A stretch of 64,000 nt of DNA from an uncultured Methanosarcinales archaeon. Lineage in GTDB: Archaea; Nanobdellota; Nanobdellia; Woesearchaeales; GW2011-AR9. Where the stretch lies: assembly GCA_964344235.1 (NCBI GenBank), contig CAYFMJ010000002.1, positions 13,320 through 77,319 on the forward strand, given 5' to 3'. Both the position numbers and the translations under genes were made by a program. A model generated the notes under the pieces. It did no database searches. It was given only the letters and a program-made list of their open reading frames with translations, and was not told the origin of the DNA. Shown piece by piece: positions 26,865 through 53,235 of this stretch; position 1 is the first letter of the stretch; every line of letters begins with the position of its first letter.

Positions 26865-26925
26865 ACATCCACCTAACCCCGATCATTCGGGTTGAATAGG
26901 TATATTTAAACATTTATTGACTCTA

Positions 26926-28848
26926 ATGGATATTTTGGAGAACACATTCTTATTTAAACTTTCTGGTTCGTTTTTTCACTACATATTACCTAAAATGCTT
27001 TCTCCAGATGTCAAAGAATTCTTCCCGTACGACCAGATACGAGATGGTCAAAAAGAACTCATTAACGACGTAGAACGTACCTGCAAGGAACAGAAAATTC
27101 TGCTTGCACATGCTCCTACTGGTTTAGGAAAAACTGTAAGCTCTTTAGCAGCAATTCTTTCCTATGCAATCAAAGAAAAGAAAGTTGTGTTCTTTCTCAC
27201 TAACAGACACACACAACACCGCATTGCTGTTGAAACGATCAAACACATCCGTGACAAAACGCATGAACCCCTTTCCTGTGTTGATTTAATTGGAAAACGA
27301 TGGATGTGTAATCAAGAAGTTTCCAGCTTGTTTGGTAGTGACTTTAACGAGTTCTGCAAGTCAATCGTTGAGAAAGGCGAATGTGAATTCTATAACAACA
27401 TTAGAACAAAGAAAGGCCTCAGCGTACCAGCACAAGCACTGATTAAAGAACTTGAACGGCAAACGCTCCACAACGAAGAACTTGTTGCCAGAGGGAAAGA
27501 AGAAAAGATGTGCAGTTATGAAATTGCTATGGCCATGGCCAAGAAAGCAACTGTAATTATTGGCGATTATTATTACCTCTTCAACCCGTTTATTCAAGCT
27601 ACTCTCTTCACTAAAATGGAAAAAGAGATGGAGGATGCCATTGTGATTGTTGATGAAGGTCACAACCTCCCTGCAAGAGTTACAGACATGGTAAGTAATA
27701 CCCTCACCAGCCTCATGATCAAAAATGCCATTATGGAAGCAAGGAAATACCATTACCAAGGCCTTATTGAGTGGCTACAAAAGTTACAAGAAATTCTTAC
27801 TCAATTGGCAGTATTTGATGATGCTTCCAAAGAAAAGAAAGTGAGTCGAGAACAGTTCTCACAGAAGGTAGCGGCGTTTATTGACTATGAAAATCTCATT
27901 GAAGAGCTAGATGCCGCAGCTGATGAGGTTCGCAAACGGCAGCGAAAAAGTTATCTTGGTGGAATTGCTTCTTTCTTAGAAGCATGGAATGGTGCAGATG
28001 ATGGTTTTACTAGAATCATTAACGAAACAGAAACCAAATTCGGTCCGAGTATTGCACTCAAATATCTCTGTTTAGATCCTTCTATTATTACTAAACCCGT
28101 ATTTTCCCGTGTTCATGCTGGTGTTATCATGAGTGGTACACTTACTCCTGTCTCTATGTACAGCGACGTATTGGGCATAGATAACCCACTTGAGAGAGAG
28201 TACCACTCTCCATTTCCACCGGAGAATAAACTTGCTCTTGTTGTTCCTGAGACAACTACCAAATACACTGCCCGTAATAATGGCATGTATAAAGAAATTG
28301 CAGAACGTTGCTCTACCATCGCTTCACTTGTTCCGGGAAACGTCGCTCTGTTCTTCCCTTCCTATTACGTTCGTGACTGTGTTGGTGAGTTTTTCCAATC
28401 AGAGAAACAATTATTTTGGGAAAAAAGTTCTATGCAGAAAGAAGAAAAAGAACAATTCCTCAGGGACTTTCGGGCAATAAAAGAAACGGGTGGCGTTCTG
28501 TTGGGTGTAACGGGCGCTAACTTCGCTGAAGGTGTTGATTTCCCTGGTGATTTATTGCATGGCGTCGTTGTTATTGGTATCCCTTTAGCAAAACCAGACT
28601 TGAAAACGAAAGAAGTTATCAACTACTACCAGCAAAAATTCGGCAAGGGGTGGGAGTATGGCTATACATTCCCTGCCATCTCTAAATGTATTCAGTCGGC
28701 TGGCAGGTGTATTAGAAGTGAGTCAGATAAAGGTGCCGTTATTTATTTAGACGAACGCTTTGCCTGGTCACGCTATTATGGTTGCTTACCACGCGAGGGT
28801 TTAATCGTTAGCAAAGAGTATACAAAATACTTAACGGAATTCTGGTAA
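26926..28848 (+). CDS. xpd: XPD/Rad3-family 5'-3' DNA helicase (FeS-cluster helicase)
   Basis: Walker A APTGLGKT, DEGH box IVDEGHNL, Cys cluster (C..C..C...C) between motifs Ia and II, and C-terminal QSAGRCIRS. Confidence 0.85.
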   Translation: MDILENTFLFKLSGSFFHYILPKMLSPDVKEFFPYDQIRDGQKELINDVERTCKEQKILLAHAPTGLGKTVSSLAAILSYAIKEKKVVFFLTNRHTQHRIAVETIKHIRDKTHEPLSCVDLIGKRWMCNQEVSSLFGSDFNEFCKSIVEKGECEFYNNIRTKKGLSVPAQALIKELERQTLHNEELVARGKEEKMCSYEIAMAMAKKATVIIGDYYYLFNPFIQATLFTKMEKEMEDAIVIVDEGHNLPARVTDMVSNTLTSLMIKNAIMEARKYHYQGLIEWLQKLQEILTQLAVFDDASKEKKVSREQFSQKVAAFIDYENLIEELDAAADEVRKRQRKSYLGGIASFLEAWNGADDGFTRIINETETKFGPSIALKYLCLDPSIITKPVFSRVHAGVIMSGTLTPVSMYSDVLGIDNPLEREYHSPFPPENKLALVVPETTTKYTARNNGMYKEIAERCSTIASLVPGNVALFFPSYYVRDCVGEFFQSEKQLFWEKSSMQKEEKEQFLRDFRAIKETGGVLLGVTGANFAEGVDFPGDLLHGVVVIGIPLAKPDLKTKEVINYYQQKFGKGWEYGYTFPAISKCIQSAGRCIRSESDKGAVIYLDERFAWSRYYGCLPREGLIVSKEYTKYLTEFW

Positions 28849-31206: not shown

Positions 31207-31524
31207 ATGATAACAATGAAAACGGCACCATTTAATAGGTGTATTGAATGTACCGATGTGATTACTAACCCAGTTTGTCCCGGCTGTCTAGCAAAAGAGA
31301 TGCAAGTTATGGTTTCTGAGCACAACGAAGCTCTAGCCATGCAAATCACTGCCCCTCACATCCCGGGAGGAGAGACCATGTGTATCTCCTGTGGTGATTC
31401 CATGAACCTGTGTGCGCACTGTTTCAGTAAGGATGTCTACCTCTTCCTTGAACACCATAACGAACAAATTGCTGAAGAGTTCATGCGCCGTTTCGACTTT
31501 GAATTACGACAAGAATTTTATTAA
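31207..31524 (+). CDS. hypothetical 4x CxxC zinc-binding protein
   Basis: GGAGGTGGAT precedes the ATG at 31207. Contains CIEC, CPGC, CISC and CAHC pairs. The track's longer N-terminus looks non-coding. Confidence 0.5.
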   Translation: MITMKTAPFNRCIECTDVITNPVCPGCLAKEMQVMVSEHNEALAMQITAPHIPGGETMCISCGDSMNLCAHCFSKDVYLFLEHHNEQIAEEFMRRFDFELRQEFY

Positions 31525-32963
31525 CAATTAATACCAATCACGCTGCTAATCTCCTCAGAGGTAAAACACTGCTGCAGCACTTTACAATATTGCGAATATT
31601 CTTTCTCAGGATTCTTAATGAAACCACTCAACACATATTCTGATGGTAACACATACATTCTTTTACTTTTATGTGTTTTCTCAATGGAACCACACGTTAA
31701 ACTCTGCACAGTCTTCTGGAATGCCTGCCAACTGTTGAACTTCACACTATAATCAGCTTCAACACCTGTTTCACACTGCTGCTTTGACCGTAAGATCAAA
31801 TCGCTCTTGCCGGGAGTTTTCACAACATGATATGATGCACTATTTGGTCCATCCACCGTTTGCACACAGATATGGAACGCATCAACTTTGTCATAAAACG
31901 CGTTCTTCGTGAGATACGTCCCCAATTCCGCTTTCATAGAACTATGTAATTGCGCTTCTGACTGGAAATACACTGCATGTCCTGTTGCTCCTTTCAAGAT
32001 AAAGAACACGCCAACCAACACTAAAATACTGAACCCAGCAATAAACGCTACTTTGTGGATATCTACATCAACCTCAGCACTACCGTCAGCCCGAGGGGAA
32101 CCAGCTTTCTTATATTTCTTATAATTATGCCGCATCGTCTCCTTATACGCCCATTGAACATCATTTGGATGCCAACCTGCTTTCACTAAATTCGATTTAA
32201 TATGGGGAAACTTCTTTCCCGCAGCAATGTGTTTTGTAATGTAATTCTTTACCTCTGGATGAACTTTCGGTGAACCTTTAGACTTCATTACATACTTAAT
32301 ACCAAAGAACGCTACCATAAACACTAATAGTGCAAACAAACCGACTGTTAAAAATTTTGTAAATGCTCTTTCTTTATCAACATCCTGTTCCACATTCTTC
32401 AACTCTGCCTGTGCAGCTTCCACATCTTCTTGCAACCCTGCTAACCCCACTGTGTTCTCTTGTACATCTCCTTCAATCGAACCTTGCATTGAGTTTAGTA
32501 ATTGAATATTGTCGTTAAGATCATTGATTTGCTGCTGCAATACCAAAATGTTACTTTCTGTCTGCATGACTCTACTCTCCAAATCAGCAGAACTTGCTTC
32601 CAGGATACTTACCTCCTCTTGTAATTCATCAATTACTTGTTGATCAACACTTGGTGTTACTTCTGTTACATTTGTGTCATTAATCTCTTCTCCTCCACCA
32701 AAGAAATTTTCAAAAAATAACTCCTCTTCCGTCCCCCCAACAGATTCATCATCAATATCATTAGGATTCTGCCACATACATGTCAACGTCTCAACGCCAC
32801 AATAACAGATTTCATCACTACTTCCCGTAAACACTTCACATGGCAAAGAACAGTCAGCATTACTTGTACACATCTCCTCCAAATTAATATCTGCACCCAA
32901 GACAAACGAACCGCCACCTATAGTAAACAGCAATACAAACAGCACATACACACTTTTTTTCAT
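31521..32963 (-). CDS. secreted/membrane protein with Cys-rich N-domain, coiled coil and two TM segments
   Basis: Signal-peptide-like MKKSVYVLFVLLFTIGG, a long Q/E/L heptad region, and TM segments FLTVGLFALLVFMVAFF and VAFIAGFSILVLVGVFFIL. Confidence 0.55.
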   Translation of the reverse strand: MKKSVYVLFVLLFTIGGGSFVLGADINLEEMCTSNADCSLPCEVFTGSSDEICYCGVETLTCMWQNPNDIDDESVGGTEEELFFENFFGGGEEINDTNVTEVTPSVDQQVIDELQEEVSILEASSADLESRVMQTESNILVLQQQINDLNDNIQLLNSMQGSIEGDVQENTVGLAGLQEDVEAAQAELKNVEQDVDKERAFTKFLTVGLFALLVFMVAFFGIKYVMKSKGSPKVHPEVKNYITKHIAAGKKFPHIKSNLVKAGWHPNDVQWAYKETMRHNYKKYKKAGSPRADGSAEVDVDIHKVAFIAGFSILVLVGVFFILKGATGHAVYFQSEAQLHSSMKAELGTYLTKNAFYDKVDAFHICVQTVDGPNSASYHVVKTPGKSDLILRSKQQCETGVEADYSVKFNSWQAFQKTVQSLTCGSIEKTHKSKRMYVLPSEYVLSGFIKNPEKEYSQYCKVLQQCFTSEEISSVIGINC

Positions 32964-33015: not shown

Positions 33016-33024
33016 TATAATTCC
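33016..33024. repeat. left copy of the 9-bp target-site duplication TATAATTCC
   Basis: Identical 9-mer directly abuts the outside of both terminal inverted repeats (33016-33024 and 38868-38876). Confidence 0.75.
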
Positions 33025-33037
33025 GGCTTTGCACAAA
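33025..33037. repeat. left terminal inverted repeat GGCTTTGCACAAA, with two further subterminal TGCACAAA copies at 33048-33055 and 33068-33075
   Basis: Exact reverse complement of 38855-38867. The TGCACAAA core occurs three times within 50 nt. Confidence 0.75.
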
Positions 33038-33169
33038 CGCTTAGTTCTGCACAAAGAGATTGCATTTTGCACAAACAATATCTCCCCAAATTAGGGGTTT
33101 TTTGGGTGTTTAGTTAACTATGTGTTCCACACAAGAAGTTTTTAAATAATATCAGCCGTAAGATACGTC

Positions 33170-33583
33170 ATGGTTAAAATTAGGGGGTCAGAGGCTATTA
33201 GGAGAATCCGCCAAATACAAAAGAACATTGAAGAGCAGAATAGAAAAGACATAGATGATGAATTAGAACTGCTTGGTCTGAACAGAAATGATCCTGACCT
33301 AAAAAAAATCGTAGAGAAAATCATTGAGAAAACAGAATCAGAAAGGGCCCTTTTGAAAATACTTAACAAACGTTTTGAGACGAATAAAGCAGTCAATATC
33401 AAAAGAACATTTGAGATCATAGATCGGATTAGATCTAAGAAAAATTTCTACGTCAATTTAGCATATATCAGGAAACAAGAAAAAATAAACGGGAGGCTAT
33501 TACGCCTGAACCGAGATACAATCCGCTTGACTATTTTGGTTTTGTTGTTGATGGCAGTTCAGATATTCTTAATGGTTCGTTGA
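33170..33583 (+). CDS. hypothetical coiled-coil protein (uncertain)
   Basis: 137-aa K/E/R-rich ORF at the left end of the element. It competes with an antisense ORF and overlaps the 3' end of the nuclease gene. Confidence 0.3.
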   Translation: MVKIRGSEAIRRIRQIQKNIEEQNRKDIDDELELLGLNRNDPDLKKIVEKIIEKTESERALLKILNKRFETNKAVNIKRTFEIIDRIRSKKNFYVNLAYIRKQEKINGRLLRLNRDTIRLTILVLLLMAVQIFLMVR

Positions 33584-34232
33584 CTCTTACCCATTTACAA
33601 AACCCGCACTCTTCAGAGCTCTCTGGCAAACTGCCTTCAAGAACCGCTATCGCCTCTTTGAAGATTTTCTTAGCGTTGTTAACATTAACTTTCATTTTTA
33701 TTAGTTCTGCGTGAAAGTCAACATCGCCATTCTCGTGAACTTTATTTGGATGGTAGAAGAGCAGGTAAGCGTAATCTTCGGTTTTGTAATCATTTAACTG
33801 CAGTAGGTGGTTGTAAATGTCTAACTGATTCTGGTAATGGTCTGCTGTATCCTCTTTTAATGGGTATCCTCTAGTTTTGTAATCTAAAACGATGAGTTTG
33901 TTGCCTTTCTTTAGAATGTTGTCTACGGCTCCACGAAAGAGGTTTCCTTCTTTGTCCGTCCACTGAATACCTTTGAAATTGTTTCTCCAAATTGTAAGTA
34001 ACTCTTCATCATCAAAGAGTTTTACTTCACCATTGAGTTTCTCTAATTCTGGAGGGAGTGTTTCCAACTTCATAAACTTATCAAAGTGGTTTTTTAAGAT
34101 TCTATCTATTCCAGAAGGTAAACTTGGAAAGATTCCGTTAGGCCTACGCAACTTTTTATTATGGTGTAGCCAGAAACAACGTGGACATTCTTTTAGAAGG
34201 CTTAGTGCTGAAGGGGAGAGTTTGTATGCCAT
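33531..34232 (-). CDS. Cas4/RecB-like PD-(D/E)XK nuclease
   Basis: N-terminal LSPSALSLLKECPRCFWL, GAVDNI (D), VLDYKT (D/E-x-K), QNQLDIYNHLL (QxxxY), and C-terminal Cys pair ECGFCKW. Confidence 0.7.
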   Translation of the reverse strand: MAYKLSPSALSLLKECPRCFWLHHNKKLRRPNGIFPSLPSGIDRILKNHFDKFMKLETLPPELEKLNGEVKLFDDEELLTIWRNNFKGIQWTDKEGNLFRGAVDNILKKGNKLIVLDYKTRGYPLKEDTADHYQNQLDIYNHLLQLNDYKTEDYAYLLFYHPNKVHENGDVDFHAELIKMKVNVNNAKKIFKEAIAVLEGSLPESSEECGFCKWVRVNEPLRISELPSTTKPK

Positions 34233-34233
34233 T

Positions 34234-35178
34234 TTAGTTTAGGGATTTTGAATAAGGTAATGATTTAATATAATTCCTCATAAAAATCCAATCTGGCCTG
34301 CCATCTTTATCGACAGGCAACATTATTTTACTCTTTGACATCCTATCAAATCTCCATTTACGGCCGTAATTAAACCGATATTTTTCTTTACCAATTAAAG
34401 GGATTAAGAACATCGAGATATATACATCTAGATGCCCATCTTTGATTCTTAAAATGTTTACATCATGAGAACAAGTAAATTCTTCTGGTTGATAGAATGC
34501 AGCACCAGCATGGCCATTGTTAACTACTGTTAAACAATTCCCCTTGAAGACTTTTTCTACAATCGATTTGTCAAGATAATCTGTAACGCCATTGTTATAA
34601 ACGGATGCTGAGATGAATTTCAATTCCCCCTCCTTAGTTGGCCTTTTATTATAAAATCCTCTTTCAATTGCGAATACCTCACCATACAAGAAATACTTCC
34701 ACTTTCTACTTGATAAATTTGTTTTTTCGTTTAATAACCTTGCATTAAGATTCCTTCGGACAAATTTTTTCTTTTTATAGACCCACGAGGGCATATTAAT
34801 CTCAACCAATGTTCTCCCAAGCCTACTAGGTGTAACCTTTCTACCATAGCTATATCTAAAAACTTCCCTTCTTATTAAAAGGACAAAATACATCATCTCC
34901 TCCCTTGAAAATTTCCTTTTTGGTGAAAGAACAATGCTATCACTATTTATACAACAACCCCTCTCTTGTAAGAATGCATAACAAACCGTTCCAGTCCTGG
35001 GTACATTAATGACATTTCTATAGGTTGGTTCAATATCTACATAACCCACAACTCCATTATCGGTTCCTTTTGATGAGATAAGTGGAGTTTTCCCTCTATC
35101 AACAGTATCTCTTACTAAGAGGTTGTCTTTTCCATACTCCATATCAAACAATTCACGTAGTTCAATCAACTTCCTCAC
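34234..35178 (-). CDS. HsdS-like specificity subunit with two target-recognition domains (BcgI-B-like)
   Basis: Internal duplication: LRELFDMEYGK...PLISSKGTDNGVVGYV...YSYGRK...IEINMP versus GEVFAIERGF...FISASVYNNGVTDYL...FNYGRK...KIMLPV. 314 aa, with no long HsdS coiled-coil spacers. Confidence 0.7.
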   Translation of the reverse strand: MRKLIELRELFDMEYGKDNLLVRDTVDRGKTPLISSKGTDNGVVGYVDIEPTYRNVINVPRTGTVCYAFLQERGCCINSDSIVLSPKRKFSREEMMYFVLLIRREVFRYSYGRKVTPSRLGRTLVEINMPSWVYKKKKFVRRNLNARLLNEKTNLSSRKWKYFLYGEVFAIERGFYNKRPTKEGELKFISASVYNNGVTDYLDKSIVEKVFKGNCLTVVNNGHAGAAFYQPEEFTCSHDVNILRIKDGHLDVYISMFLIPLIGKEKYRFNYGRKWRFDRMSKSKIMLPVDKDGRPDWIFMRNYIKSLPYSKSLN

Positions 35179-37045
35179 CCAATTCTTTGAATAACAAATA
35201 TTTTTTCATCTCTCTCTCAAAATCACTTATCTTAATTGATGAGAAATCTGATTCTAAATACGCTTCTGGAACTAATTCCAATAACTCGTCATCTGGGTCT
35301 AATTCTGTGGAAATTTTAAATTCTGGGACTGCCTTAACTTGATGATTATTGTTGGACATAAAGGCTTTTAATTCATCTTTAATCTCAAGAAGCCTATTAC
35401 TTTCTTGTTTGTCAAAAATTCTTTTCCCCTTTCTTTTTATGAAACCATCTGTATTAGCCTTTGCAAAATAAACCTTCTGGTTTATAAAATCATGAGGTAC
35501 ACCTTTTTTTATAAACATCCCAACAGTATGGACACCAACAGGGTAAAATAACTCCTCTGGGAGAGTCAATACACTTACAAGGGAGTTTTTTCTTAATAAT
35601 TCTCTCCTCCATTGCTTACCACCAGACTCAATAAGGACGGATATTGGAACAATTGCAAAAAGATGCCCACCGTCTTGCATTTGCTCAAGCGCATAGTCTA
35701 TGAAATGACTCTCTTTTTCATCAGATTTTTTTAATGCAAACGGGGGATTCATAAGAACTTTAGTTATGATGGGACTTTCATTTTTATTTCCCTCCCTTCT
35801 TTTAAATTCTCCTGTTGGAAAACCTTTCTTTTGAGTGTATACTATATTCTTCTGAAAGCAATTCCCTTCACTGATATTGTTTTTTCCATCCCCTCGAAAA
35901 ATCATATTAACTAGCGATAGTGAAACCACTTCATCATCTTGTTCTATTCCAAAAACATTATAATTTTTGAATTTGTCTAGCTGTTTATCATTGCTAGAGT
36001 TTTTCACATAATCAAAAGCAGACACTAAAAAACCACCTGTTCCACAGGTTGGGTCAAAAACATAATCATTGTGTTTTATATCAAGGACATCCACCGCAAA
36101 TTTGGTTATATGTCTTGGGGTAAGGACTATGCCAATCTCTTTTGCACCATTACCATATTTTAAAAATTTTTCATAAAACTTTCCGAGGACATCATTACCA
36201 GATGCCATAGCATTCTTTATATCCAAGGTCTGGAGTTCTTTTAGTGTGTTTATTATTGCTCTTCTATACTTAATATGGTTCTCTTTGCTTGGAGGCACTT
36301 CTAGTTTTATAAAATCAAAAAAACTTTCTTTATTTACTTCCTCTAACTTTGTTTTAATGAGATTATTGATATTATCAACAAGAAGTTTTGTTTTAGATGT
36401 CCTTAAACTTATCTCTTCATTTAGAGACAAAGATAAAACAAGCCCAGCTATAAACCTCGCTCTTTTATTTTTGTTTATCCCTGCGTTGTGTAATATCTCA
36501 TTTATTCTCTCAGCTGATGCCAAGTATTTTTCTTCAGGAAAATCAGGAAATTCTTTCCAATTAGGTGTTTTATTTGATAGTAAGTATTCTGCTTGCTCCC
36601 TTGATAATAATGTATCTTTTGGTTTTCCATTGAATAACACTGTTTCCCATTTGCCATCGTGAAGGAATTGGTTGATTATTGTATAACCATCAGTGTCATT
36701 TCCAGCTAACCCTGTTATTATCAGGCATTTAATTTTCTTACTTTTATTTATCTTCTTGGCATATTGGTTTTTTGCTTCATCCAATGCTTCATTAATATCC
36801 TTTTTGTCCCTTTTGCTCTCTATTACCCAATATTCAGAATCATTCAAACACACAACGGCTTCAGGCATATCTCTACCTAGAACTTGTTTAATATTTTCAT
36901 TGTACAAACATTCGTTCTGTTTGTAAACCTCTCCCTCTGGGACCCTGGCAGGATTTTTTACTACCCAACCTAATTCTTCTAACTCCTCTTTAATATAAGC
37001 ATATGCATCAACCTCTGAATTTTTAGGTTTTTTTGAATGAACCAT
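35162..37045 (-). CDS. fused restriction endonuclease / N6-adenine DNA methyltransferase (Type IIB BcgI-A-like)
   Basis: N-terminal PD-ExK-like MPEAVVCLNDSEYWVIESKRD. MTase motif I VFDPTCGTGGFLVSA and motif IV LMNPPFA. 17-nt overlap with the S gene. No HsdR-type helicase nearby. Confidence 0.8.
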   Translation of the reverse strand: MVHSKKPKNSEVDAYAYIKEELEELGWVVKNPARVPEGEVYKQNECLYNENIKQVLGRDMPEAVVCLNDSEYWVIESKRDKKDINEALDEAKNQYAKKINKSKKIKCLIITGLAGNDTDGYTIINQFLHDGKWETVLFNGKPKDTLLSREQAEYLLSNKTPNWKEFPDFPEEKYLASAERINEILHNAGINKNKRARFIAGLVLSLSLNEEISLRTSKTKLLVDNINNLIKTKLEEVNKESFFDFIKLEVPPSKENHIKYRRAIINTLKELQTLDIKNAMASGNDVLGKFYEKFLKYGNGAKEIGIVLTPRHITKFAVDVLDIKHNDYVFDPTCGTGGFLVSAFDYVKNSSNDKQLDKFKNYNVFGIEQDDEVVSLSLVNMIFRGDGKNNISEGNCFQKNIVYTQKKGFPTGEFKRREGNKNESPIITKVLMNPPFALKKSDEKESHFIDYALEQMQDGGHLFAIVPISVLIESGGKQWRRELLRKNSLVSVLTLPEELFYPVGVHTVGMFIKKGVPHDFINQKVYFAKANTDGFIKRKGKRIFDKQESNRLLEIKDELKAFMSNNNHQVKAVPEFKISTELDPDDELLELVPEAYLESDFSSIKISDFEREMKKYLLFKELGEEVD

Positions 37046-37133
37046 CTATCTTTTCCTCTTTTTTGTTTTCTTTTTTGGAGCAGAGAATATTTTGGCATAG
37101 TTAAGGCTCCACTTAACTGATTTGCCTCTAGGC

Positions 37134-37337
37134 TTACTTCTTGTTTTTGTAGCTTTCTTCTTCACCATGTTTAATCAAAATCTCTTCTTTGTATAATTTA
37201 TCAAGATACTTTTTAACTGTTACATAACTTATTCCAGTATACTTAGATATTTCATGAGCAGTCATAAAACCGCCGTGTTTATGAATCGCCCTGATTATTT
37301 CTCTCTCTTTATCTTTAAGTATCGGTTTGCTCGTCAT
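37134..37337 (-). CDS. small HTH DNA-binding protein
   Basis: 67 aa. MTAHEISKYTGISYVTVKKYLDKLYKEEIL is a helix-turn-helix. Confidence 0.55.
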   Translation of the reverse strand: MTSKPILKDKEREIIRAIHKHGGFMTAHEISKYTGISYVTVKKYLDKLYKEEILIKHGEEESYKNKK

Positions 37338-37566
37338 CTACCACCTCAGCGAAAAGACGAGGAACCATCTCGCCATGCTCACTTTTGTCTAACTCAACTC
37401 TAAATCGCATTATTTCATCGCCAGTTAGTCTTGCTCGTTCGGCGATCCTTTTTGGGATTTTAACCGAGAACTGCCCCGTGTTTTTGTGAAGCGTAACTTT
37501 TGCAGTCAACTCAGAACCTTGTTCTCCTTCGATTATTTCTCTAACTTCTTCGATTACCTTTCTCAT
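37315..37566 (-). CDS. SpoVT/AbrB-like small DNA-binding protein
   Basis: 83 aa. FSVKIPKRIAERARLTGDEIMRFRVE resembles the swapped-hairpin AbrB motif. 23-nt overlap with the HTH gene. Confidence 0.45.
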   Translation of the reverse strand: MRKVIEEVREIIEGEQGSELTAKVTLHKNTGQFSVKIPKRIAERARLTGDEIMRFRVELDKSEHGEMVPRLFAEVVDDEQTDT

Positions 37567-37784
37567 TGGAACTAAATATTAATCTTTATTTCATAATAAA
37601 TAGTCTATTGATTTATATAATTATCGTTATTTTCATCATAATTAGACTAATTATTGGTAATTTTTAGAAAGTTTTAAATAAAAGTGACAATAAATAGACT
37701 AAATATTGTAAAATGAAACTTGCGAGGTTGATATTATGGATGTTGTTACTGCTACTGCACGCACGGTTAGCTGGAGGATGATGT

Positions 37785-38846
37785 GTGTTACAAAAGAGAA
37801 AAACCGAGATGTGGAAAAGAGGTCGTTTAGGAGAACGACAAATGGAACTACGGGAATTCAACAAGAAAGTCAAACAGCTCACCTACCCTCAAAATTGGGA
37901 AGCATACAATCGAGCCAAAACGCAGGAGAAAATCCTCGCTGAACGATTACTCTCAGAATTGCTAGAAGCGACAGCTAACATCAAGCCAGCAAGAAAAGGC
38001 GACCAGTACGCTTCTGTGAAAGATAAAATATTCTGTATGTTCGTTTACAACTTTTCTGGACTTAGCTCAAGACGTTGTATGTCTGATGTTAAGATCGCCC
38101 ACCAGAGGGGTTTAATCGCAAGGACACCACACTTTAACTCAATCTTGAACTATTTTGCCGATCCCAACACAACTCCCATTATCAAGAAGTTAATCACTCT
38201 CACGGCGTTGCCATTACGAAACGTGGAGAAAGACTTCGCTGTTGACTCTTCGGGTTTCTCAACATCTCTCTTCGACAGATGGGTAGATTACAGGACGCAG
38301 AAAGTAACAAGAAGAAGACATTGGAAGAAATGCCACATCACAGTCGGAGTTAAGAGTAATGTGATCACTGCTGTAAAAATAACATCTGGCAGTTCCCCTG
38401 ACTGTTCAGAATTCATAGAACTGGTAAGGGAAACGAGGGGGTTCTTTGACGTTGAAGAAGTTTCGGCGGACAAAGCATATTCAAGTAAATCAAATCTCGA
38501 AGCGGTCTCCCAACTTGGAGCGATTCCGTATGTGCCTTTCAAGAAAAACACAACAGGAAAAGCAAGAGGTTCTTACACATGGAGTCGAATGTATGATTAC
38601 TTCCTTAACAACAGAGAACGATTCGATCAATCATATCACAAACGGTCAAACGTTGAAACAGCTTTCCACATGATCAAGCGGAAGTTTGGAAATAATCTCA
38701 GAACAAAGAAAGATATTTCTCATGTCAATGAAATTTTGATGAAGTGCTTGTGCCACAATCTTTCGGTTTTGGTTCAGGAGTCGTTTGAACTTGGGCTAGA
38801 AATTGATTTTTCTCATTGTGCAGAAATCTATGCTGCACAGACGTAG
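37785..38846 (+). CDS. DDE transposase, IS4/IS5 superfamily
   Basis: AVDSSGF (D), SADKAY (D), YHKRSNVETAFHMIKRK (Y-x2-R-x3-E-x6-K). N-terminal YPQNWEAYNRAKTQEK. The real start may be Met at 37809 or 37842. Confidence 0.8.
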   Translation: MLQKRKTEMWKRGRLGERQMELREFNKKVKQLTYPQNWEAYNRAKTQEKILAERLLSELLEATANIKPARKGDQYASVKDKIFCMFVYNFSGLSSRRCMSDVKIAHQRGLIARTPHFNSILNYFADPNTTPIIKKLITLTALPLRNVEKDFAVDSSGFSTSLFDRWVDYRTQKVTRRRHWKKCHITVGVKSNVITAVKITSGSSPDCSEFIELVRETRGFFDVEEVSADKAYSSKSNLEAVSQLGAIPYVPFKKNTTGKARGSYTWSRMYDYFLNNRERFDQSYHKRSNVETAFHMIKRKFGNNLRTKKDISHVNEILMKCLCHNLSVLVQESFELGLEIDFSHCAEIYAAQT

Positions 38847-38854
38847 GGTTATCA

Positions 38855-38867
38855 TTTGTGCAAAGCC
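38855..38867. repeat. right terminal inverted repeat TTTGTGCAAAGCC
   Basis: Exact reverse complement of 33025-33037. Confidence 0.75.
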
Positions 38868-38876
38868 TATAATTCC
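38868..38876. repeat. right copy of the 9-bp target-site duplication TATAATTCC
   Basis: Identical to 33016-33024. Confidence 0.75.
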
Positions 38877-38928: not shown

Positions 38929-40224
38929 ATGCTAGCGATCCAATTTATTCGTGATAATCCTAAAATTGTAAAAGCCTCCGAGAAGAAAAGGGGTCGTGAT
39001 CCTAAGCGAATTGACCAACTTCTCACATTAGACGAGGAATGGCGTTCTCTTAAACAGAAGGTAGAAAAACTTCGCCACACACGTAACACTGTTTCCGAAC
39101 AAATCAACAAAGCGAAAAAAGCGAAGAAAGAGAAAGAAGCGCAACAAAAAATTACTAAGATGCGCTCTGTAATCGCTGATATGAAGAAACAGGAAGAAAA
39201 ATTTGCGAAAGTAGAACTGGAACGTAACACTCTGCTGGCGAGCATTGGTAACATTCTTCAAAAAACAGTTCCCAAAGGCAAAGATGATTCTGACAATGTT
39301 GAATTAAAAAAGGTTGGTAAGAAACCGAAATTTACGTTTCCCCTTAAAGACCACATTGAGTTAGGAGAATCACTTGATTTAATTGATTTAGAAACAGCAG
39401 CGAAAAATTCTGGTTCCCGTTTCTACTATCTCAAGAACGAAGCAGTGCTTCTAAGCCAAGCTCTCCAGAGATTTGCAATCGACCTTCTTCTCAAGAAAGG
39501 CTTTACCCTCATCAAAACACCATTCATGCTCAACCGTGCAGCTCTTGCGGGCGGAGTAAACTTAACCGACTTTGAAGATACTATTTACAAAATTGAGGGG
39601 GAAGATCTTTACCTCATTGCAACCTCTGAACATTCCCTTGTTGCATTAAAGCGTAACCAAGTTCTTGAAGCCTCAGAACTACCAATGAAAATCGTTGGTG
39701 TCAGTACTTGCTTTAGAAAAGAATTAGGTGCACACGGTCGAGATGACAAAGGAATCTTTCGTGTCCACGAATTCAACAAAGTAGAAGAAATCATTTATTG
39801 TAAACCAGAGAATTCAGAGAAATACTTCAACGAATTGCAAAAACTCTCTGAAGATATTTTCAAAAAGCTTGGTCTTCCGTATCGGGTAGTTAACATCTGT
39901 ACGGGGGATTTAGGAAATAAACAATCATTACAGTATGATATTGAAGTGTGGTTCCCAGGACAGAATGAAAAGAAAGGAGCGTATCGAGAAGTAACCTCTT
40001 GCAGCAACTGCTTAGACTATCAGTCAGTTTCTCTTAACACAAAATACACAACCAAAGACGGCAAGCGAGAGTATGTTCATCTTCTTAACAATACCGCTTT
40101 AACTGACACCAGGCCAATTGCTGCTATTCTCGAAAATTACCAGCAGAAAGATGGTTCCGTGAAAATTCCGAAAGCCCTCTGGCCGTATATGAATGGGATT
40201 AAAGTAATCAAACCAACAAAATGA
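38929..40224 (+). CDS. serS: seryl-tRNA synthetase
   Basis: N-terminal coiled-coil arm (IRDNP..V......R), class II core (FRVHEFNKVE, TSCSNC.DYQS) and NNTALT.TR. Confidence 0.9.
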   Translation: MLAIQFIRDNPKIVKASEKKRGRDPKRIDQLLTLDEEWRSLKQKVEKLRHTRNTVSEQINKAKKAKKEKEAQQKITKMRSVIADMKKQEEKFAKVELERNTLLASIGNILQKTVPKGKDDSDNVELKKVGKKPKFTFPLKDHIELGESLDLIDLETAAKNSGSRFYYLKNEAVLLSQALQRFAIDLLLKKGFTLIKTPFMLNRAALAGGVNLTDFEDTIYKIEGEDLYLIATSEHSLVALKRNQVLEASELPMKIVGVSTCFRKELGAHGRDDKGIFRVHEFNKVEEIIYCKPENSEKYFNELQKLSEDIFKKLGLPYRVVNICTGDLGNKQSLQYDIEVWFPGQNEKKGAYREVTSCSNCLDYQSVSLNTKYTTKDGKREYVHLLNNTALTDTRPIAAILENYQQKDGSVKIPKALWPYMNGIKVIKPTK

Positions 40225-40286: not shown

Positions 40287-41399
40287 ATGTTTAAGAGCCT
40301 CCTCGCAACATTACTCGCTGGGGGGATAGCAGCAACAACATTTCTGAGTGATGGAGCACCACTACAACTGGCAGCAGCGTATCATCAACCGTATACTGCA
40401 AGTATTCTCAGTCCACTTTCTGTTGAATCGGTCCCACCTCCTGCCGCACTTACAACCTCCTCTATAACCACCACTCCACCTCCAACCCTGCCTCGGAAAG
40501 CTCTCTCATACTGCACAACCACTCGGAGAATTCATCACTATCCTTCTGAAAGTGTCATTGACAGTACGGGATGTCCCCAATGGTGGAACCTTTTAGCGGA
40601 AGAATCTGAAATTCGTGAGCTTGACCGTGGTTGTGGTAGAATGGAAGACCTACGGGAAGATCTTTATCATCGTCTCGGCAGGTCGTGTGACTCTCCTGTC
40701 CTACGAGAACTAAGAACAAAAGCTCCTTCACCTGACTTTGTTATTTACTTTTTACAAAACATGTATGATGATAACCACCGTGATGGTGCAAAACCAAGTC
40801 CATTTGCTCCACCTGCTGCAGTTATAGAGATTCACAACGCTCTTGATGATCAACCAACATTCCGCCGGCGAGATATCCTGAATATACTCTGTGATGATTA
40901 CGCTGCCACTTCAAAACCTCCAGAAGGCAAAGAAGATGTTTGTCTTTCATTACAACAAGCATATCCTGATGATTTTGAGGTAATAGTAGAAGATCCCTCA
41001 GAAAGTCTTTTCTGCTCTATGCTTGAACCCGTCTTCAATTTTCTTGATTGGCGGCCCCCGTTTTTACATCCAATGCCCTCCGTAGACCTCTCGGAAGAAT
41101 TTCCAGGCATCTTTCCTCCTGGTGAAGCGGGTGTTAGTTTAAGGACCTATAAAATAATTACTACTCCCCTAAATGTGACTTACCACAAAGATGACATTGA
41201 AATGGTTGCTGAGGATTTAGTTCATGTTATTCGCTCAACTGTTCCTGCTGGTAAAGATGTTCTTGCTTATGGTCTAGAATTGAAATCTCAGTTTGGTGAA
41301 CTTTTCACTCTTCCACCAGGCACAGTAGAACTTGTTACCAATAAGCTAGTTGGCTATGACCCTTTGTCCAGGACATTTGCTATTGATAATATTGATTAA
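40287..41399 (+). CDS. hypothetical secreted protein
   Basis: Signal-peptide-like MFKSLLATLLAGGIAATTFL and a Pro/Thr-rich segment. No family recognised. Confidence 0.5.
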   Translation: MFKSLLATLLAGGIAATTFLSDGAPLQLAAAYHQPYTASILSPLSVESVPPPAALTTSSITTTPPPTLPRKALSYCTTTRRIHHYPSESVIDSTGCPQWWNLLAEESEIRELDRGCGRMEDLREDLYHRLGRSCDSPVLRELRTKAPSPDFVIYFLQNMYDDNHRDGAKPSPFAPPAAVIEIHNALDDQPTFRRRDILNILCDDYAATSKPPEGKEDVCLSLQQAYPDDFEVIVEDPSESLFCSMLEPVFNFLDWRPPFLHPMPSVDLSEEFPGIFPPGEAGVSLRTYKIITTPLNVTYHKDDIEMVAEDLVHVIRSTVPAGKDVLAYGLELKSQFGELFTLPPGTVELVTNKLVGYDPLSRTFAIDNID

Positions 41400-41451
41400 C
41401 TGCCCTTTTACCCCCAAAATCCTTATAAACACCTTTCTCTCTCATCATGAG

Positions 41452-42519
41452 ATGTCCTTATTCAAAGATATGCTCCATGCCAACGAATCGTTGTTCAGAG
41501 ACACCATCTTTCTCAGCTACGATTTTCAACCAAAAATCCTCCATGGCCGGGAAAATGAACAACAACGCTTTGCTGTAGCTATCCGCCCTTTATTACAAGG
41601 CCACAATGGCAGAAATGTCTTCGTCTATGGAGCCCCAGGTATTGGAAAAACTACTGCCTGTAAACATGTCCTCCGGGAATTGGAAGATGAAACTGATGAC
41701 GTCATTCCTTTATACATCAACTGTTGGAAAGAAAATACAACCTATAAAATCTTCTACAAAATCTGTGAACAACTTGGTTACAAATTTATTCAGAGTAAAA
41801 AAACCACAGAACTCTTTGCGTTAATCGCACAGAAACTGAACAAAGTAAGTGCCGTCTTCGTTTTTGATGAAATCGACAAATTAGAAGATACAGACTTCCT
41901 CTACACGATCTTGGAAGACATTTACAGAAAATCAATTATTCTTATTACAAATTACAGAGACAGCTATTCCGAAATGGATGAACGCATTCGTAGTAGATTA
42001 AATCCAGAATTCCTTTGCTTTCGAGCGTATAACGAATCAGAAGTTGCAGAAATTCTCAAGCAACGAAAAGAATATGCTTTCGTACCTACTGCCTGGGATG
42101 ATGCCGCGTTTAAAGAAATTGTTGAGAAATGTACGGAAACAAACGACGTGCGTGTTGGTTTGTATATGATGCGGGAAGCAGGGAACGTAGCTGAGGATAA
42201 AAGTTCTAGAACCATCAACGCAGAGCACGTTGCGGAAGCTGTCAAGAAAGTGCAAAATTTTCATATCAAACCGAAGGATGGATTGGATGAGGAGTTACAA
42301 TCAATTCTTGACCTTGTTAAAGCCCACACTGGTAAGAAAATTGGTGATATGTATAGTGAGTATCAACAAACTGGCGGTCAGTTAAGTTACAAAAGTTTCC
42401 ATAGAAGAGTTATGAAATTACAAGATGGCCGCTTCGTTTCGTCAGAAAAAGTTACGGGAAAAGACGGCAATACAACACTTGTCCATTACGCAAGTACAAA
42501 AAAATTAACAGATTTCTAA
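41452..42519 (+). CDS. cdc6: Orc1/Cdc6 replication initiator
   Basis: GRE.E......L, Walker A GAPGIGKTT, Walker B VFVFDEIDKL, and a C-terminal winged helix. Start moved to the ATG at 41452. Confidence 0.85.
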   Translation: MSLFKDMLHANESLFRDTIFLSYDFQPKILHGRENEQQRFAVAIRPLLQGHNGRNVFVYGAPGIGKTTACKHVLRELEDETDDVIPLYINCWKENTTYKIFYKICEQLGYKFIQSKKTTELFALIAQKLNKVSAVFVFDEIDKLEDTDFLYTILEDIYRKSIILITNYRDSYSEMDERIRSRLNPEFLCFRAYNESEVAEILKQRKEYAFVPTAWDDAAFKEIVEKCTETNDVRVGLYMMREAGNVAEDKSSRTINAEHVAEAVKKVQNFHIKPKDGLDEELQSILDLVKAHTGKKIGDMYSEYQQTGGQLSYKSFHRRVMKLQDGRFVSSEKVTGKDGNTTLVHYASTKKLTDF

Positions 42520-51596: not shown

Positions 51597-52004
51597 ATGA
51601 ATCATAACAAATTTATGCAAACCGCTATTGATGACGCTAGAAAATATAAGCACCATTTTGGCGCGGTTATTGTGAAGAATAACAAAATAATCGCATCAGG
51701 TAATGATAGGCCCCCTGGGGATCCTCGTTTCCATGCCGAAACAACTGCAATCTTAGCAACAAAAAAGAGGTCGTTGGAGGGCTGTATTTTATACTCAACC
51801 AGTGAACCTTGTCCTATGTGTTTTTACATGGCATGGATTACGGGAATTAAAAACATTGTTTACGGTTCAACGATTAAAGATGCTGCTAAAGCCGGTCATC
51901 CTCAGATTATTACTACCAATAAATATCTTAACAAAAAATCAGGCAAAAAAATTAAACTCACACAAATTATGAGAAAAGAGTGCAAAGAATTGCTTAATGA
52001 ATAA
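51597..52004 (+). CDS. CMP/dCMP-type zinc deaminase
   Basis: HAE...(25)...PCPMC zinc-binding signature. 135 aa. Confidence 0.75.
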   Translation: MNHNKFMQTAIDDARKYKHHFGAVIVKNNKIIASGNDRPPGDPRFHAETTAILATKKRSLEGCILYSTSEPCPMCFYMAWITGIKNIVYGSTIKDAAKAGHPQIITTNKYLNKKSGKKIKLTQIMRKECKELLNE

Positions 52005-52944: not shown

Positions 52945-53049
52945 CTTTCTAGTAGAATGCAGGTTCTTTTAAAATTTGCGTGTTTTCCGCCATTTTTTAG
53001 TAGAAATAGATAAAAGACACCTAACATATAGAAAGATGAGGAATGTGGG

Positions 53050-53235
53050 GTGGTGGATGTTATGAGGGTGGAAGTTTTGTGTTGGAAAAGAATAATTCAA
53101 AGTAAGAGGGGGATTCCTTACATTTATCTCTCCCAAAACTTATCTCCAGAAAGCGGATTCTATAAAGGAAGAGAAGTTGATTGTAAAATAGTTGTGGAAA
53201 AAGGAAAAGTGCGTTTAATTATTGACCTTATTTGA
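53050..53235 (+). CDS. hypothetical small protein (uncertain)
   Basis: 61-aa ORF with a GTG-type start. No motif. Weak support. Confidence 0.3.
   Translation: MVDVMRVEVLCWKRIIQSKRGIPYIYLSQNLSPESGFYKGREVDCKIVVEKGKVRLIIDLI

What the first reader, a model, noticed from the sequence alone, without database searches (positions are those of the whole stretch)
33531..37045. BcgI-like Type IIB R-M pair tightly coupled to a Cas4-like PD-(D/E)XK nuclease
Three co-directional genes with essentially no spacers. (1) A 627-aa protein with an N-terminal PD-ExK-like motif (PEAVV...VIESK) fused to a gamma-class N6-adenine methyltransferase (FDPTCGTGGF, NPPF). (2) Overlapping it by 17 nt, a 314-aa HsdS-like protein with two internally duplicated target-recognition domains. 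(3) One nt later, a 233-aa Cas4/RecB-type nuclease (CPRC...D...DYK...QxxxY...CGFC). There is no HsdR helicase, so the first two genes match the BcgI A/B architecture of about 637 and 341 aa (established knowledge) rather than Type I. To my knowledge the third gene is not part of described Type IIB systems. A second nuclease translationally coupled to the specificity subunit could be an extra effector, a DNA-end processor, or a transposon-maintenance function. This is the best candidate for an undescribed defence configuration in the window.
Basis: partly seen in the sequence, partly recalled or inferred. Interest (0 to 1): 0.7.

Follow-up and report, generated by a model that had tools for sequence, protein, structure and literature searches.

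The report
Restriction system riding an archaeal transposon
The three genes are real, but they are cargo of one 5.8-kb jumping element in a small archaeon: a BcgI/BsaXI-type restriction-modification pair is its regular cargo, and the Cas4-like nuclease is an optional extra gene of a kind already noted beside such systems.

Summary
Three minus-strand genes lie at 35162-37045 (627 aa), 34234-35178 (314 aa) and 33531-34232 (233 aa), with a 17-nt overlap and a 1-nt gap, and all catalytic motifs are intact. The first two form a Type IIB (BcgI/BsaXI-like) RM+S pair. The third is a RecB/Cas4-fold nuclease (PF12705), not a bona fide Cas4.

The trio is not a dedicated three-gene system. None of 10 informative loci holding close RM relatives has the nuclease next to S. 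Only 2 of 53 loci with the nuclease hold an RM627-like gene, and gene order differs in both.

The whole block 33025-38867 is one IS5-family transposon. It has 13-bp perfect terminal inverted repeats and a perfect 9-bp target duplication (TATAATTCC). Sister transposons with clear ends carry Tnp+RM+S. Some add the Cas4-like gene or a Holliday-junction-resolvase-like nuclease.

The nuclease family does sit next to DNA methyltransferase genes of many types about 30 times more often than background. The literature already noted this looser link for DPANN solo-Cas4 in 2017.

Verdict: a new member of known kinds, of moderate interest.

The parts
33016..33024 (.). Left copy of the 9-bp target-site duplication, TATAATTCC
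   Evidence: Exact match to 38868-38876, directly abutting the terminal inverted repeat.
33025..33080 (+). Left (transposase-distal) transposon end: 13-bp terminal inverted repeat GGCTTTGCACAAA (33025-33037) followed by three subterminal copies of T(T/C)TGCACAAA
   Evidence: 13/13 inverted match to 38855-38867. Motif copies at 33028, 33045 and 33066. The sister element in L044 has the same architecture.
33170..33583 (+). orf137: small basic protein with a hydrophobic C-terminus and no family match. It is convergent with the Cas4-like gene and overlaps its 3' end by 53 nt.
   Evidence: ORF list. Called as a gene on all sister contigs. No Pfam, NCBIfam or PHROG hit.
33531..34232 (-). Solo Cas4-like RecB-fold nuclease (233 aa, PF12705) with a CxxC...CxxC cysteine pattern
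   Evidence: PDDEXK_1 1.2e-12. TIGR00372 cas4 scores 27.6 bits, below its cut-off of 65. C16, C19, D104, D117, K119, Q136, Y140, C209 and C212 are invariant. The AF2 model (pLDDT 87) matches AdnAB, Cas4-Cas1-Cas2, MGME1, Exo5 and RecE.
34234..35178 (-). Specificity subunit (314 aa) with two target-recognition domains
   Evidence: Methylase_S in two stretches, 5.1e-19. PADLOC Specificity_II 2.9e-26 over the whole length. It follows the RM gene in every related locus.
35162..37045 (-). Fused restriction-modification subunit (627 aa): N-terminal PD-ExK endonuclease domain, helical connector and gamma-type N6-adenine methyltransferase
   Evidence: N6_Mtase 2.6e-33. PADLOC Type IIG models 5e-49 and 2.2e-43. 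E45, P61-E62, E76-S-K78 and NPPF are invariant. The AF2 model shows an alpha-beta nuclease fold at residues 12-135. Fold matches to BsaXI (Type IIB), BpuSI and DrdV.
37134..37337 (-). HTH67: small winged-helix DNA-binding protein, a candidate regulator of the cargo operon
   Evidence: HTH_24 6e-05 and many other wHTH families. A 37%-identical homologue sits directly upstream of the Cas4-like gene in L001.
37315..37566 (-). orf83: small protein with no family hit. By eye it carries an AbrB/SpoVT-like 'VKIPKRIAERARL' motif.
   Evidence: ORF list. Called as a gene on sister contigs. No Pfam or NCBIfam hit. The AbrB-like reading is my inference only.
37785..38846 (+). DDE transposase of the IS5 family (353 aa from GTG; 345 aa from the ATG at 37809), divergent from the cargo genes
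   Evidence: DDE_Tnp_1 6.3e-21. NCBIfam IS5_2 1.3e-36, 126.6 bits against a cut-off of 140. Homologues 36-46% identical sit beside the RM gene in L037, L044, L061, L063, L068 and L069, and beside the Cas4-like gene in L001, which has no RM627-like gene.
38811..38867 (-). Right (transposase-proximal) transposon end: terminal inverted repeat at 38855-38867 plus a subterminal repeat at 38811-38825
38868..38876 (.). Right copy of the 9-bp target-site duplication, TATAATTCC

Best explanation
The region 33025-38867 is a single 5.84-kb IS5-family (IS903-like) cargo transposon. It is inserted between a gene of unknown function and the seryl-tRNA synthetase gene of a DPANN-type archaeon.

Its regular cargo is a Type IIB restriction-modification enzyme. 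The 627-aa RM subunit and the 314-aa S subunit probably assemble as (RM)2S. That complex would methylate a bipartite site on host DNA and cut unmodified DNA on both sides of the site. This function is inferred by homology to BcgI and BsaXI.

Two small DNA-binding proteins upstream probably regulate the cargo genes (inferred).

The Cas4-like gene is a facultative extra cargo gene, not a subunit of the enzyme. It belongs to a conserved DPANN-wide family of solo RecB/Cas4-fold nucleases. Members of that family repeatedly lie next to DNA-methyltransferase-based modules of many types: Type I, Type IIG/IIB, a PLD-helicase plus Eco57I-type methylase operon, and Dcm-Vsr.

The role I consider most likely is a generic DNA-end exonuclease acting downstream of restriction. 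It would either degrade cleaved invader DNA or resect breaks in host DNA for repair when a mobile RM system arrives or is lost. This role is inferred, not shown.
For: Transposon (shown):
- 13/13 terminal inverted repeats and a perfect 9-bp direct repeat abut both ends.
- Three sister elements have GGCTTTG-type ends and perfect 9-bp duplications of different sequence: L044, L037 and L063.
- L068 and L069 have 7-bp duplications.
- The transposase is IS5-family.

Type IIB:
- PADLOC Type IIG and Specificity_II models match.
- The fold matches solved BsaXI.
- Invariant E45/E62/E76/K78 have the same spacing as the BsaXI catalytic residues E73/D90/E105/K107 (PMC11997821).
- No HsdR-like gene in the window.

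Cas4-like gene is facultative:
- 0 of 10 informative RM-seeded loci have it.
- Gene order differs in L037 and L044.
- The transposon-borne copies do not form one clade.
- The RM-S-HTH module has GC3 of 0.27-0.31, against 0.38 for the Cas4-like gene.

Looser functional link:
- 11 DNA methyltransferase genes lie in the 145 kb within 1.5 kb of the nuclease gene, against 1 in the 415 kb beyond 3 kb.
- A Pfam census of near versus far neighbours agrees.

End-processing fold: the nuclease model matches AdnAB, Cas4, MGME1, Exo5 and RecE.
Against: - No empty site was found. Every contig with identical proteins comes from one project and carries the same insertion.
- Nothing here shows enzymatic activity, a methylation motif, co-transcription or physical interaction.
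- The methyltransferase enrichment could partly reflect shared residence in small mobile islets rather than shared function.
- The two other Cas4-carrying transposons were found by searching with the Cas4-like protein, so the 3-of-7 frequency is biased upwards.
- The transposase scores just below NCBIfam's IS5 cut-off.
Confidence: 0.6

Rival explanations
1. One reading: RM, S and the Cas4-like nuclease form one dedicated three-component defence system, with the translationally coupled nuclease as an obligate second effector.
For: The gap is 1 nt and the genes are co-directional. All catalytic residues are intact. The nuclease and an RM627-like gene share a transposon in L037 and L044.
Against: - 0 of 10 informative loci with relatives of the RM protein (60-75% identical) carry the nuclease.
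- In L044 the nuclease lies upstream of RM, separated by two genes. In L037 it is divergent from a fused RM-S gene.
- The same tight junction is seen with unrelated upstream genes in 12 of 55 loci.
- Solved and studied Type IIB enzymes need only RM and S (PMC11997821).
Confidence: 0.1
2. The Cas4-like gene is an ordinary host repair or recombination gene with no functional tie to restriction. The transposon merely captured it, or transposons tend to land beside it.
For: - The family is 60-80% identical across many DPANN lineages, and its tree roughly follows host groups.
- Its GC3 is host-like.
- Most loci (about 80%) have no methyltransferase within 1.5 kb.
- The literature finds that solo-cas4 genes evolve mostly vertically under ordinary purifying selection (PMC5704561).
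Against: - DNA methyltransferase genes are about 30-fold denser within 1.5 kb than beyond 3 kb.
- Near neighbours are defence or mobile-element genes, while far neighbours are housekeeping genes.
- No housekeeping gene is a recurrent neighbour.
- Here the gene lies inside the inverted repeats and target duplication.
Confidence: 0.2
3. The extra PD-(D/E)XK nucleases serve the transposon itself. This covers the Cas4-like gene here and in L037 and L044, and the Holliday-junction-resolvase-like gene in L044 and L063. They might cut the second strand at the ends, as TnsA does in Tn7, or process transposition intermediates.
For: 4 of 7 delimited elements carry an additional PD-(D/E)XK nuclease beyond the RM enzyme.
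Against: - L068, L069 and L061 have clean ends and duplications without any such gene.
- Only 3 of 53 other loci of the nuclease family (L001, L037, L044) have this transposase nearby.
- IS5-family elements normally need only their DDE transposase (established knowledge).
Confidence: 0.07

Closest known systems
Type IIB restriction-modification enzymes with separate subunits (BcgI A/B; BsaXI RM/S, PDB 8w0p/8w2p)
   Same: - An N-terminal PD-(D/E)XK nuclease is fused to a gamma N6-adenine methyltransferase.
- A separate HsdS-like subunit has two TRDs.
- There is no translocase.
- The E...(D/E)...ExK catalytic spacing matches.
- The fold matches BsaXI.
   Different: - Only the methyltransferase core is detectably similar in sequence to solved structures.
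- At 627 aa the RM subunit is much shorter than BsaXI RM (about 915 aa).
- The active-site PD is PE.
- Double-sided cleavage is untested.
Transposon-like mobile RM units (Furuta, Abe and Kobayashi 2010, PMC2853133), including a Neisseria gonorrhoeae unit with a Type IIG RM gene, an S homologue and a transposase-like gene, flanked by 26-bp inverted repeats and an 8-bp duplication
   Same: RM genes lie inside terminal inverted repeats with a short target duplication, and the cargo is BcgI-like RM+S.
   Different: Here the element is autonomous, with an apparently intact IS5-family transposase. It sits in DPANN-type archaea, forms a recognisable family (at least 6 elements with GGCTTTG-type ends), and carries variable extra cargo.
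DPANN solo-Cas4 and PF12705 Cas4-like nucleases in defence contexts (Hudaiberdiev et al. 2017, PMC5704561)
   Same: - A stand-alone Cas4-family nuclease in small-genome archaea without CRISPR.
- Adjacency to RM genes was noted in several DPANN genomes.
- PF12705 UvrD-Cas4 fusions lie next to Type III RM and Dcm-Vsr, and the authors propose an ancillary role.
   Different: - This family is a stand-alone 220-aa protein with a CxxC...CxxC cysteine pattern.
- It hits PF12705, not PF01930.
- I could not check whether it is one of the DPANN families in that paper's tables.
- The association is quantified here, and the gene is shown to be transposon cargo.
IS903 group of the IS5 family
   Same: A DDE_Tnp_1/IS5-type transposase, inverted repeats starting GGCTTTG, and a 9-bp target duplication. 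The IS903 features are recalled from memory, not tested here.
   Different: IS903 is about 1 kb and carries only its transposase. These elements are 4.4-8.4 kb with 2-8 passenger genes and multiple subterminal repeats.

Membership tests
Type IIB RM (BcgI/BsaXI-like) | RM subunit with an N-terminal PD-(D/E)XK endonuclease domain carrying E...(D/E)...ExK | tested here: met
   E45, E62, E76 and K78 are invariant in 35 homologues. Their spacing (17, 14) compares with BsaXI E73/D90/E105/K107 (17, 15). The AF2 model shows an alpha-beta nuclease fold at residues 12-135. Fold matches to BsaXI cover 563-617 of 627 alignment columns.
Type IIB RM (BcgI/BsaXI-like) | Gamma-class N6-adenine methyltransferase domain in the same polypeptide | tested here: met
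   PF02384 at residues 284-559, 2.6e-33. Motif I (DPTCGTGGF) precedes motif IV (NPPF), and both are invariant.
Type IIB RM (BcgI/BsaXI-like) | Separate specificity subunit with two target-recognition domains | tested here: met
   Methylase_S in two stretches. PADLOC Specificity_II 2.9e-26 over residues 8-305.
Type IIB RM (BcgI/BsaXI-like) | No ATP-dependent translocase (HsdR/Res) partner | tested here: met
   tblastn with three HsdR or PLD-helicase queries finds nothing in the 64-kb window. None lies inside the transposon.
Type IIB RM (BcgI/BsaXI-like) | Cleavage on both sides of a bipartite recognition site; (RM)2S assembly | not testable with these tools
   Needs biochemistry or methylome data.
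Cas4 (CRISPR-associated; TIGR00372 / PF01930) | Sequence match above the curated family threshold | tested here: not met
   TIGR00372 scores 27.6 bits against a cut-off of 65. Pfam reports only PF12705 at E up to 0.1.
Cas4 (CRISPR-associated; TIGR00372 / PF01930) | RecB nuclease motifs (D, D/ExK, QxxxY) | tested here: met
   D104, D117-Y-K119 and Q136...Y140 are invariant. The fold matches Cas4 in Cas4-Cas1-Cas2 complexes.
Cas4 (CRISPR-associated; TIGR00372 / PF01930) | Four cysteines in the canonical 1 + 3 arrangement binding an Fe-S cluster | tested here: inconclusive
   Four invariant cysteines are present but arranged 2 + 2 (C16-x2-C19 ... C209-x2-C212). The metal content is unknown. The canonical pattern is recalled from knowledge of SSO0001.
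Cas4 (CRISPR-associated; TIGR00372 / PF01930) | Encoded with cas1/cas2 or next to a CRISPR array | tested here: not met
   No tandem repeat array in the window. None of the genes annotated here in or near the transposon is a cas gene.
IS5-family transposon | DDE transposase of the IS5 family | tested here: inconclusive
   The best NCBIfam hit is IS5_2, 1.3e-36, but at 126.6 bits it is below the cut-off of 140. Pfam DDE_Tnp_1 passes its cut-off.
IS5-family transposon | Terminal inverted repeats flanked by a short target-site duplication | tested here: met
   13/13 inverted repeats and a 9/9 duplication. The same structure appears in L037, L044 and L063 with different duplicated sequences.
IS5-family transposon | Empty target site, or further copies, in related genomes | tested here: not met
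   All contigs with identical SerRS, transposase or nuclease proteins carry the same insertion. The window holds a single copy.
Type I RM | HsdR subunit; HsdM without a nuclease domain | tested here: not met
   No HsdR-like gene. HsdM sequence matches start at residue ~245-287 of the 627-aa protein, leaving a conserved N-terminal nuclease domain.
MADS (methylation-associated defence system) | mad2/mad5 matches above threshold, plus the other mad genes | tested here: not met
   NF047738 scores 70 bits against a cut-off of 720. The PADLOC mad2 and mad5 hits are weaker than the Type IIG and Specificity_II hits. No other mad genes are present.

The most novel reading that the evidence does not exclude
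DPANN archaea may host a family of IS5-type 'defence transposons'. Each would pair a Type IIB/IIG restriction-modification enzyme with a swappable accessory PD-(D/E)XK nuclease, either a solo Cas4-like or a Holliday-junction-resolvase-like protein. On this reading the accessory nuclease cooperates with restriction. It would finish off cleaved invader DNA, or rescue the new host's chromosome while the mobile RM system establishes itself. That would make a portable substitute for the RecBCD/AddAB functions that these reduced genomes lack.
Probability: 0.25. Interest if true: 0.6.

Novelty: new member of a known kind. Interest (0 to 1): 0.4.

Why it matters
The result turns an apparent new three-gene defence system into something more ordinary but cleaner. 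It is a precisely delimited cargo transposon that moves a complete Type IIB restriction-modification system, plus optional nucleases, between DPANN archaeal genomes.

The RM gene also has 65-75% identical relatives in CPR bacteria, Rickettsia endosymbionts and Nitrosopumilaceae.

It matters in three ways:
1. It gives a concrete vehicle for the spread of RM systems among ultra-small archaea.
2. It puts numbers on the association, previously only noted, between solo Cas4-like nucleases and DNA-methyltransferase modules. That makes the long-standing question of what solo Cas4 does testable in a compact natural context.
3. It offers short, apparently intact Type IIB enzymes (627 + 314 aa) that may interest enzymologists.

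Tried and rejected
- **Type I RM and MADS.** Both rejected: there is no HsdR, and the scores are far below cut-offs.
- **CRISPR-associated Cas4.** Rejected: below threshold, with no CRISPR array or cas neighbours.
- **'Cas4-like is native, RM inserted beside it'.** I first inferred this from GC3 and from L001, where a transposase and an HTH67-like gene precede the nuclease with no RM between them. I abandoned it as stated once the inverted repeats and target duplication showed that the nuclease gene lies inside the transposed unit. The GC3 difference is kept only as evidence of mosaic cargo.
- **An own promoter for the nuclease.** A TATA-like box lies at about -35 to -42 inside the S gene, as in stand-alone homologues. 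The same bases encode the conserved YIK of S proteins, so this is uninformative.
- **Transposon ends in L001.** Only a weak 24-nt, 79% inverted repeat was found, without a duplication. Left unresolved.
- **Empty-site search.** Look-ups with identical SerRS, nuclease and transposase proteins returned only the same insertion.
- **Viral origin of the nuclease.** It matches phrog_31195 strongly, but only 2 IMG/VR contigs encode relatives. Not mainly viral.
- **DUF2779 protein next to S in L091 as a distant Cas4-like relative.** The profile comparison gave nothing.
- **Sequence search of PDB for the S subunit and the nuclease.** Nothing significant.
- **The sigma-70 promoter/terminator scanner.** Not used, because the host is archaeal.

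Full report
**1. Observation**

The ORF list shows three co-directional minus-strand ORFs: 35162-37045 (627 aa), 34234-35178 (314 aa, GTG start) and 33531-34232 (233 aa). The first two overlap by 17 nt. One base separates the stop of the second from the ATG of the third (sequence).

- 627-aa protein: N6_Mtase (2.6e-33), and PADLOC 'Type IIG restriction enzyme-methyltransferase' models at 5e-49 and 2.2e-43.
- 314-aa protein: Methylase_S in two stretches, and PADLOC 'Type II specificity subunit' at 2.9e-26.
- 233-aa protein: PDDEXK_1 (1.2e-12) and PADLOC Cas4 models at 6e-10. The curated cas4 model TIGR00372 scores only 27.6 bits against a cut-off of 65.

**2. The RM pair**

In an alignment with 34 homologues, the N-terminal residues E45, P61-E62 and E76-S-K78 are invariant. 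So are the methyltransferase motifs DPxCGTGGF and NPPF.

The AlphaFold2 model has mean pLDDT 79. It shows an alpha-beta nuclease fold at residues 12-135, then a helical connector and the methyltransferase.

Sequence searches of solved structures find only HsdM proteins, and those matches start at residue ~245-287. So the first ~170 residues are an extra domain.

By fold, the model also matches the solved Type IIB enzyme BsaXI over 563-617 alignment columns. It matches the Type IIG/IIL enzymes BpuSI and DrdV as well.

The BsaXI paper reports that catalytic residues E73, D90, E105 and K107 are conserved across Type IIB enzymes (PMC11997821). E45/E62/E76/K78 here have nearly the same spacing. No HsdR-like gene exists in the window.

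I therefore accept the BcgI/BsaXI-like Type IIB assignment on architecture. Double-sided cleavage itself cannot be tested here.

**3. The nuclease**

C16, C19, D104, D117, K119, Q136, Y140, C209 and C212 are invariant in 35 sequences, so the protein is not degraded.

The model (pLDDT 87) matches RecB-family end-processing nucleases: AdnAB, Cas4 in Cas4-Cas1-Cas2 complexes, MGME1, Exo5, RecE and AddAB. These matches are better than those to Type II restriction enzymes.

It is not a bona fide Cas4:
- It scores below the family threshold.
- Its cysteines are arranged 2+2 rather than the canonical 1+3.
- The window has no CRISPR-like array.

**4. Does the trio recur?**

The nuclease has about 3,500 relatives, 60-80% identical, labelled Woesearchaeota, Pacearchaeota, Nanoarchaeota, Aenigmarchaeota and similar.

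The RM protein has relatives 65-75% identical in very different organisms: Rickettsia endosymbionts, candidate-phyla-radiation bacteria and Nitrosopumilaceae. This is the pattern of a horizontally mobile gene.

Loci found through the RM protein give 10 with informative flanks (L061-L064, L068-L070, L091, L092 and the P0151 contig). S always follows RM, and the nuclease is never there.

Among 53 loci found through the nuclease, only L037 and L044 have an RM627-like gene:
- In L044 the nuclease lies upstream of RM, with two genes between them.
- In L037 it is divergent from a fused RM-S gene.

A junction of 10 nt or less to a co-directional upstream gene occurs in 12 of 55 loci of the nuclease family. 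The upstream partners are unrelated: RhuM, Vsr, an AAA_14 ATPase and several unknowns. Many family members share a TAAAATG start context. The tight S-nuclease coupling in the window is therefore a habit of this gene, not a signature of a three-gene system.

**5. What the block really is**

A repeat search, then direct inspection, showed the following:
- GGCTTTGCACAAA at 33025-33037 is perfectly inverted at 38855-38867.
- Both ends carry further subterminal copies of T(T/C)TGCACAAA.
- The 9-mer TATAATTCC directly flanks both ends (33016-33024 and 38868-38876).

So 33025-38867 (5,843 bp) transposed as one unit. It contains the DDE transposase (IS5 family; Pfam DDE_Tnp_1), orf83, the winged-helix HTH67, RM, S, the Cas4-like gene and orf137.

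Sister elements confirm the family:

| Locus | Span / size | Ends and duplication | Cargo |
|---|---|---|---|
| L044 | about 8.4 kb | TSD TCTGATAGA | Tnp, AAA_14 ATPase, Cas4-like, Holliday-junction-resolvase-like nuclease, RM, S |
| L037 | 901-7744 | TSD TAGAGTCTA | Tnp, fused RM-S, Cas4-like |
| L063 | 5898-11671 | 17/17 repeats, TSD GGTTTTTTG | Tnp, fused RM-S, resolvase-like nuclease |
| L068 | 4459-9284 | 7-bp duplication | Tnp, RM, S, and a 104-aa ORF |
| L069 | 4434-8877 | 7-bp duplication | Tnp, RM, S only |
| L061 | 6401-11191 | a different inverted repeat; no clear duplication | Tnp, RM, S and a small ORF |

From memory, IS903 of the IS5 family has GGCTTTG... ends and 9-bp duplications. 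That fits, but I did not test it.

I found no empty site. All contigs with identical proteins come from one project and share the insertion.

**6. Is there any link between the nuclease and restriction?**

Yes, but a loose one.

- Clustering all neighbours of the nuclease in 55 loci gives only two recurrent families: N6-adenine methyltransferase genes, and Dcm plus Vsr.
- Counting methyltransferase genes by distance gives 11 in the 145 kb lying within 1.5 kb of the nuclease gene (11 of 53 loci). Beyond 3 kb there is 1 in 415 kb. That is about a 30-fold difference. The Poisson P is about 1e-13, but it rests on a background rate estimated from a single event.
- A Pfam census of 148 near and 148 far neighbours agrees. 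Methyltransferases, ResIII helicases and nucleotidyltransferases lie near. Ribosomal proteins, tRNA synthetases and kinases lie far.
- The partners span Type I, Type IIG/IIB, a PLD-helicase plus Eco57I-type methylase operon, and Dcm-Vsr. Any role must therefore be generic.
- The nuclease tree roughly follows host groups, and the transposon-borne copies do not form one clade.
- Inside the window's transposon, RM, S and HTH67 have GC3 of 0.27-0.31. The nuclease, orf83 and the transposase have 0.38-0.44, close to flanking host genes. Both points indicate mosaic, repeatedly reassembled cargo.

**7. Mechanism I commit to**

- Shown: an IS5-type transposon carries the genes.
- Inferred by homology: RM and S form a Type IIB enzyme that methylates host DNA and cuts unmodified DNA on both sides of a bipartite site.
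- Inferred from fold and context, about 40% likely: the nuclease is a facultative DNA-end exonuclease working downstream of restriction. It would destroy cleaved invader DNA, or resect host breaks for repair when the mobile RM arrives or is lost.

The rivals are a dedicated three-component system (about 0.1), a pure hitchhiking housekeeping gene (about 0.2), and a helper of transposition like TnsA (about 0.07). The evidence for and against each is given in the rivals section.

**8. Comparison with the literature**

- Hudaiberdiev et al. 2017 (PMC5704561) reported that most DPANN archaea encode solo-Cas4. They noted that in several DPANN genomes its adjacency to RM genes 'implies' uncharacterised defence roles. 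They also found PF12705 UvrD-Cas4 fusions next to Type III RM and Dcm-Vsr, and proposed an ancillary role.
- Furuta et al. 2010 (PMC2853133) described transposon-like RM units with inverted repeats and short duplications. One is a BcgI-like RM+S unit with a transposase-like gene.

Both halves of the picture therefore have precedent. What is new here:
- the exact delimitation of the element;
- the recognition of a family of such elements in DPANN archaea;
- the numbers behind the nuclease-methyltransferase association.

**9. Verdict**

The finding is a new member of known kinds, with interest about 0.4. The most novel reading not excluded is a modular 'restriction plus end-processing' defence transposon. 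I give it about 0.25 probability.

Noticed in passing
L037:901-7744; L044:~7250-15704; L063:5898-11671; L068:4459-9284; L069:4434-8877: A family of IS5-type cargo transposons carries Type IIB/IIG RM genes in DPANN-type contigs. The ends are GGCTTTG-type, with perfect 9-bp (or 7-bp) target duplications. Two of them (L044, L063) carry an Endonuc_Holl (Holliday-junction-resolvase-like) nuclease.
   Followed up: partly
L068:9285-9310: Directly after the right end and duplication of the L068 element lies another left-end-like sequence (GAGCTTTGCACCTAAAGT). This suggests insertion next to, or into, a second element end.
   Followed up: no
L091:9857-11314: In one RM-seeded locus, a 485-aa DUF2779 protein lies convergent to S, immediately after it. 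Mrr_cat, Abi_C and integrase genes are nearby. No detectable relation to the Cas4-like family was found (hhalign probability 0.07).
   Followed up: partly
window 33531-33583: The Cas4-like protein here has a C-terminal extension of about 13 aa compared with its homologues. Its 3' end overlaps the convergent orf137 by 53 nt.
   Followed up: no
L001-L054, start of the Cas4-like gene: Many members of the nuclease family share the start context TAAAATG. Upstream genes of unrelated families often end exactly on that TAA.
   Followed up: partly
L006 and L016 (both from MAG JAHJDQ01): One Nanoarchaeota MAG holds two full-length copies of the Cas4-like gene, 72% and 65% identical to the window's. Several contigs also end at or just after the gene, which hints at nearby repeats or strain variation.
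   Followed up: no
proteins P0155, P0162, P0154, P0181, P0200, P0172: RM627 homologues 65-70% identical are named by their sources as coming from Rickettsia endosymbionts, CPR bacteria (Falkowbacteria, Moranbacteria, Parcubacteria) and Nitrosopumilaceae. This implies recent inter-domain transfer. Some are fused to an S-like domain (about 790-825 aa).
   Followed up: no
L044:15784-17668 and L061:14181-16023: These two loci share a three-gene synteny block downstream of their RM transposons. L044's element holds an ATPase, the Cas4-like gene and a resolvase-like gene between the transposase and RM. L061's does not.
   Followed up: partly
window 26917-28848, 38929-40224, 41350-42519, 48789-50666: The host genes are archaeal housekeeping genes: an XPD/Rad3-like helicase, SerRS, Cdc6/Orc1 and FttA/aCPSF1. 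ARAGORN finds no tRNA gene in the whole 64 kb.
   Followed up: partly
window 51597-54948: A second low-GC stretch (0.348 at 52-54 kb) holds ordinary genes: a cytidine deaminase, a double Lrp/AsnC-type regulator and a TctA transporter. It is not an obvious island.
   Followed up: yes
window 31521-32963 and 40287-41399: Two sizeable ORFs flank the insertion (480 aa and 370 aa). Neither has a Pfam match. The 480-aa protein has an N-terminal hydrophobic segment and a long acidic coiled-coil-like region.
   Followed up: no
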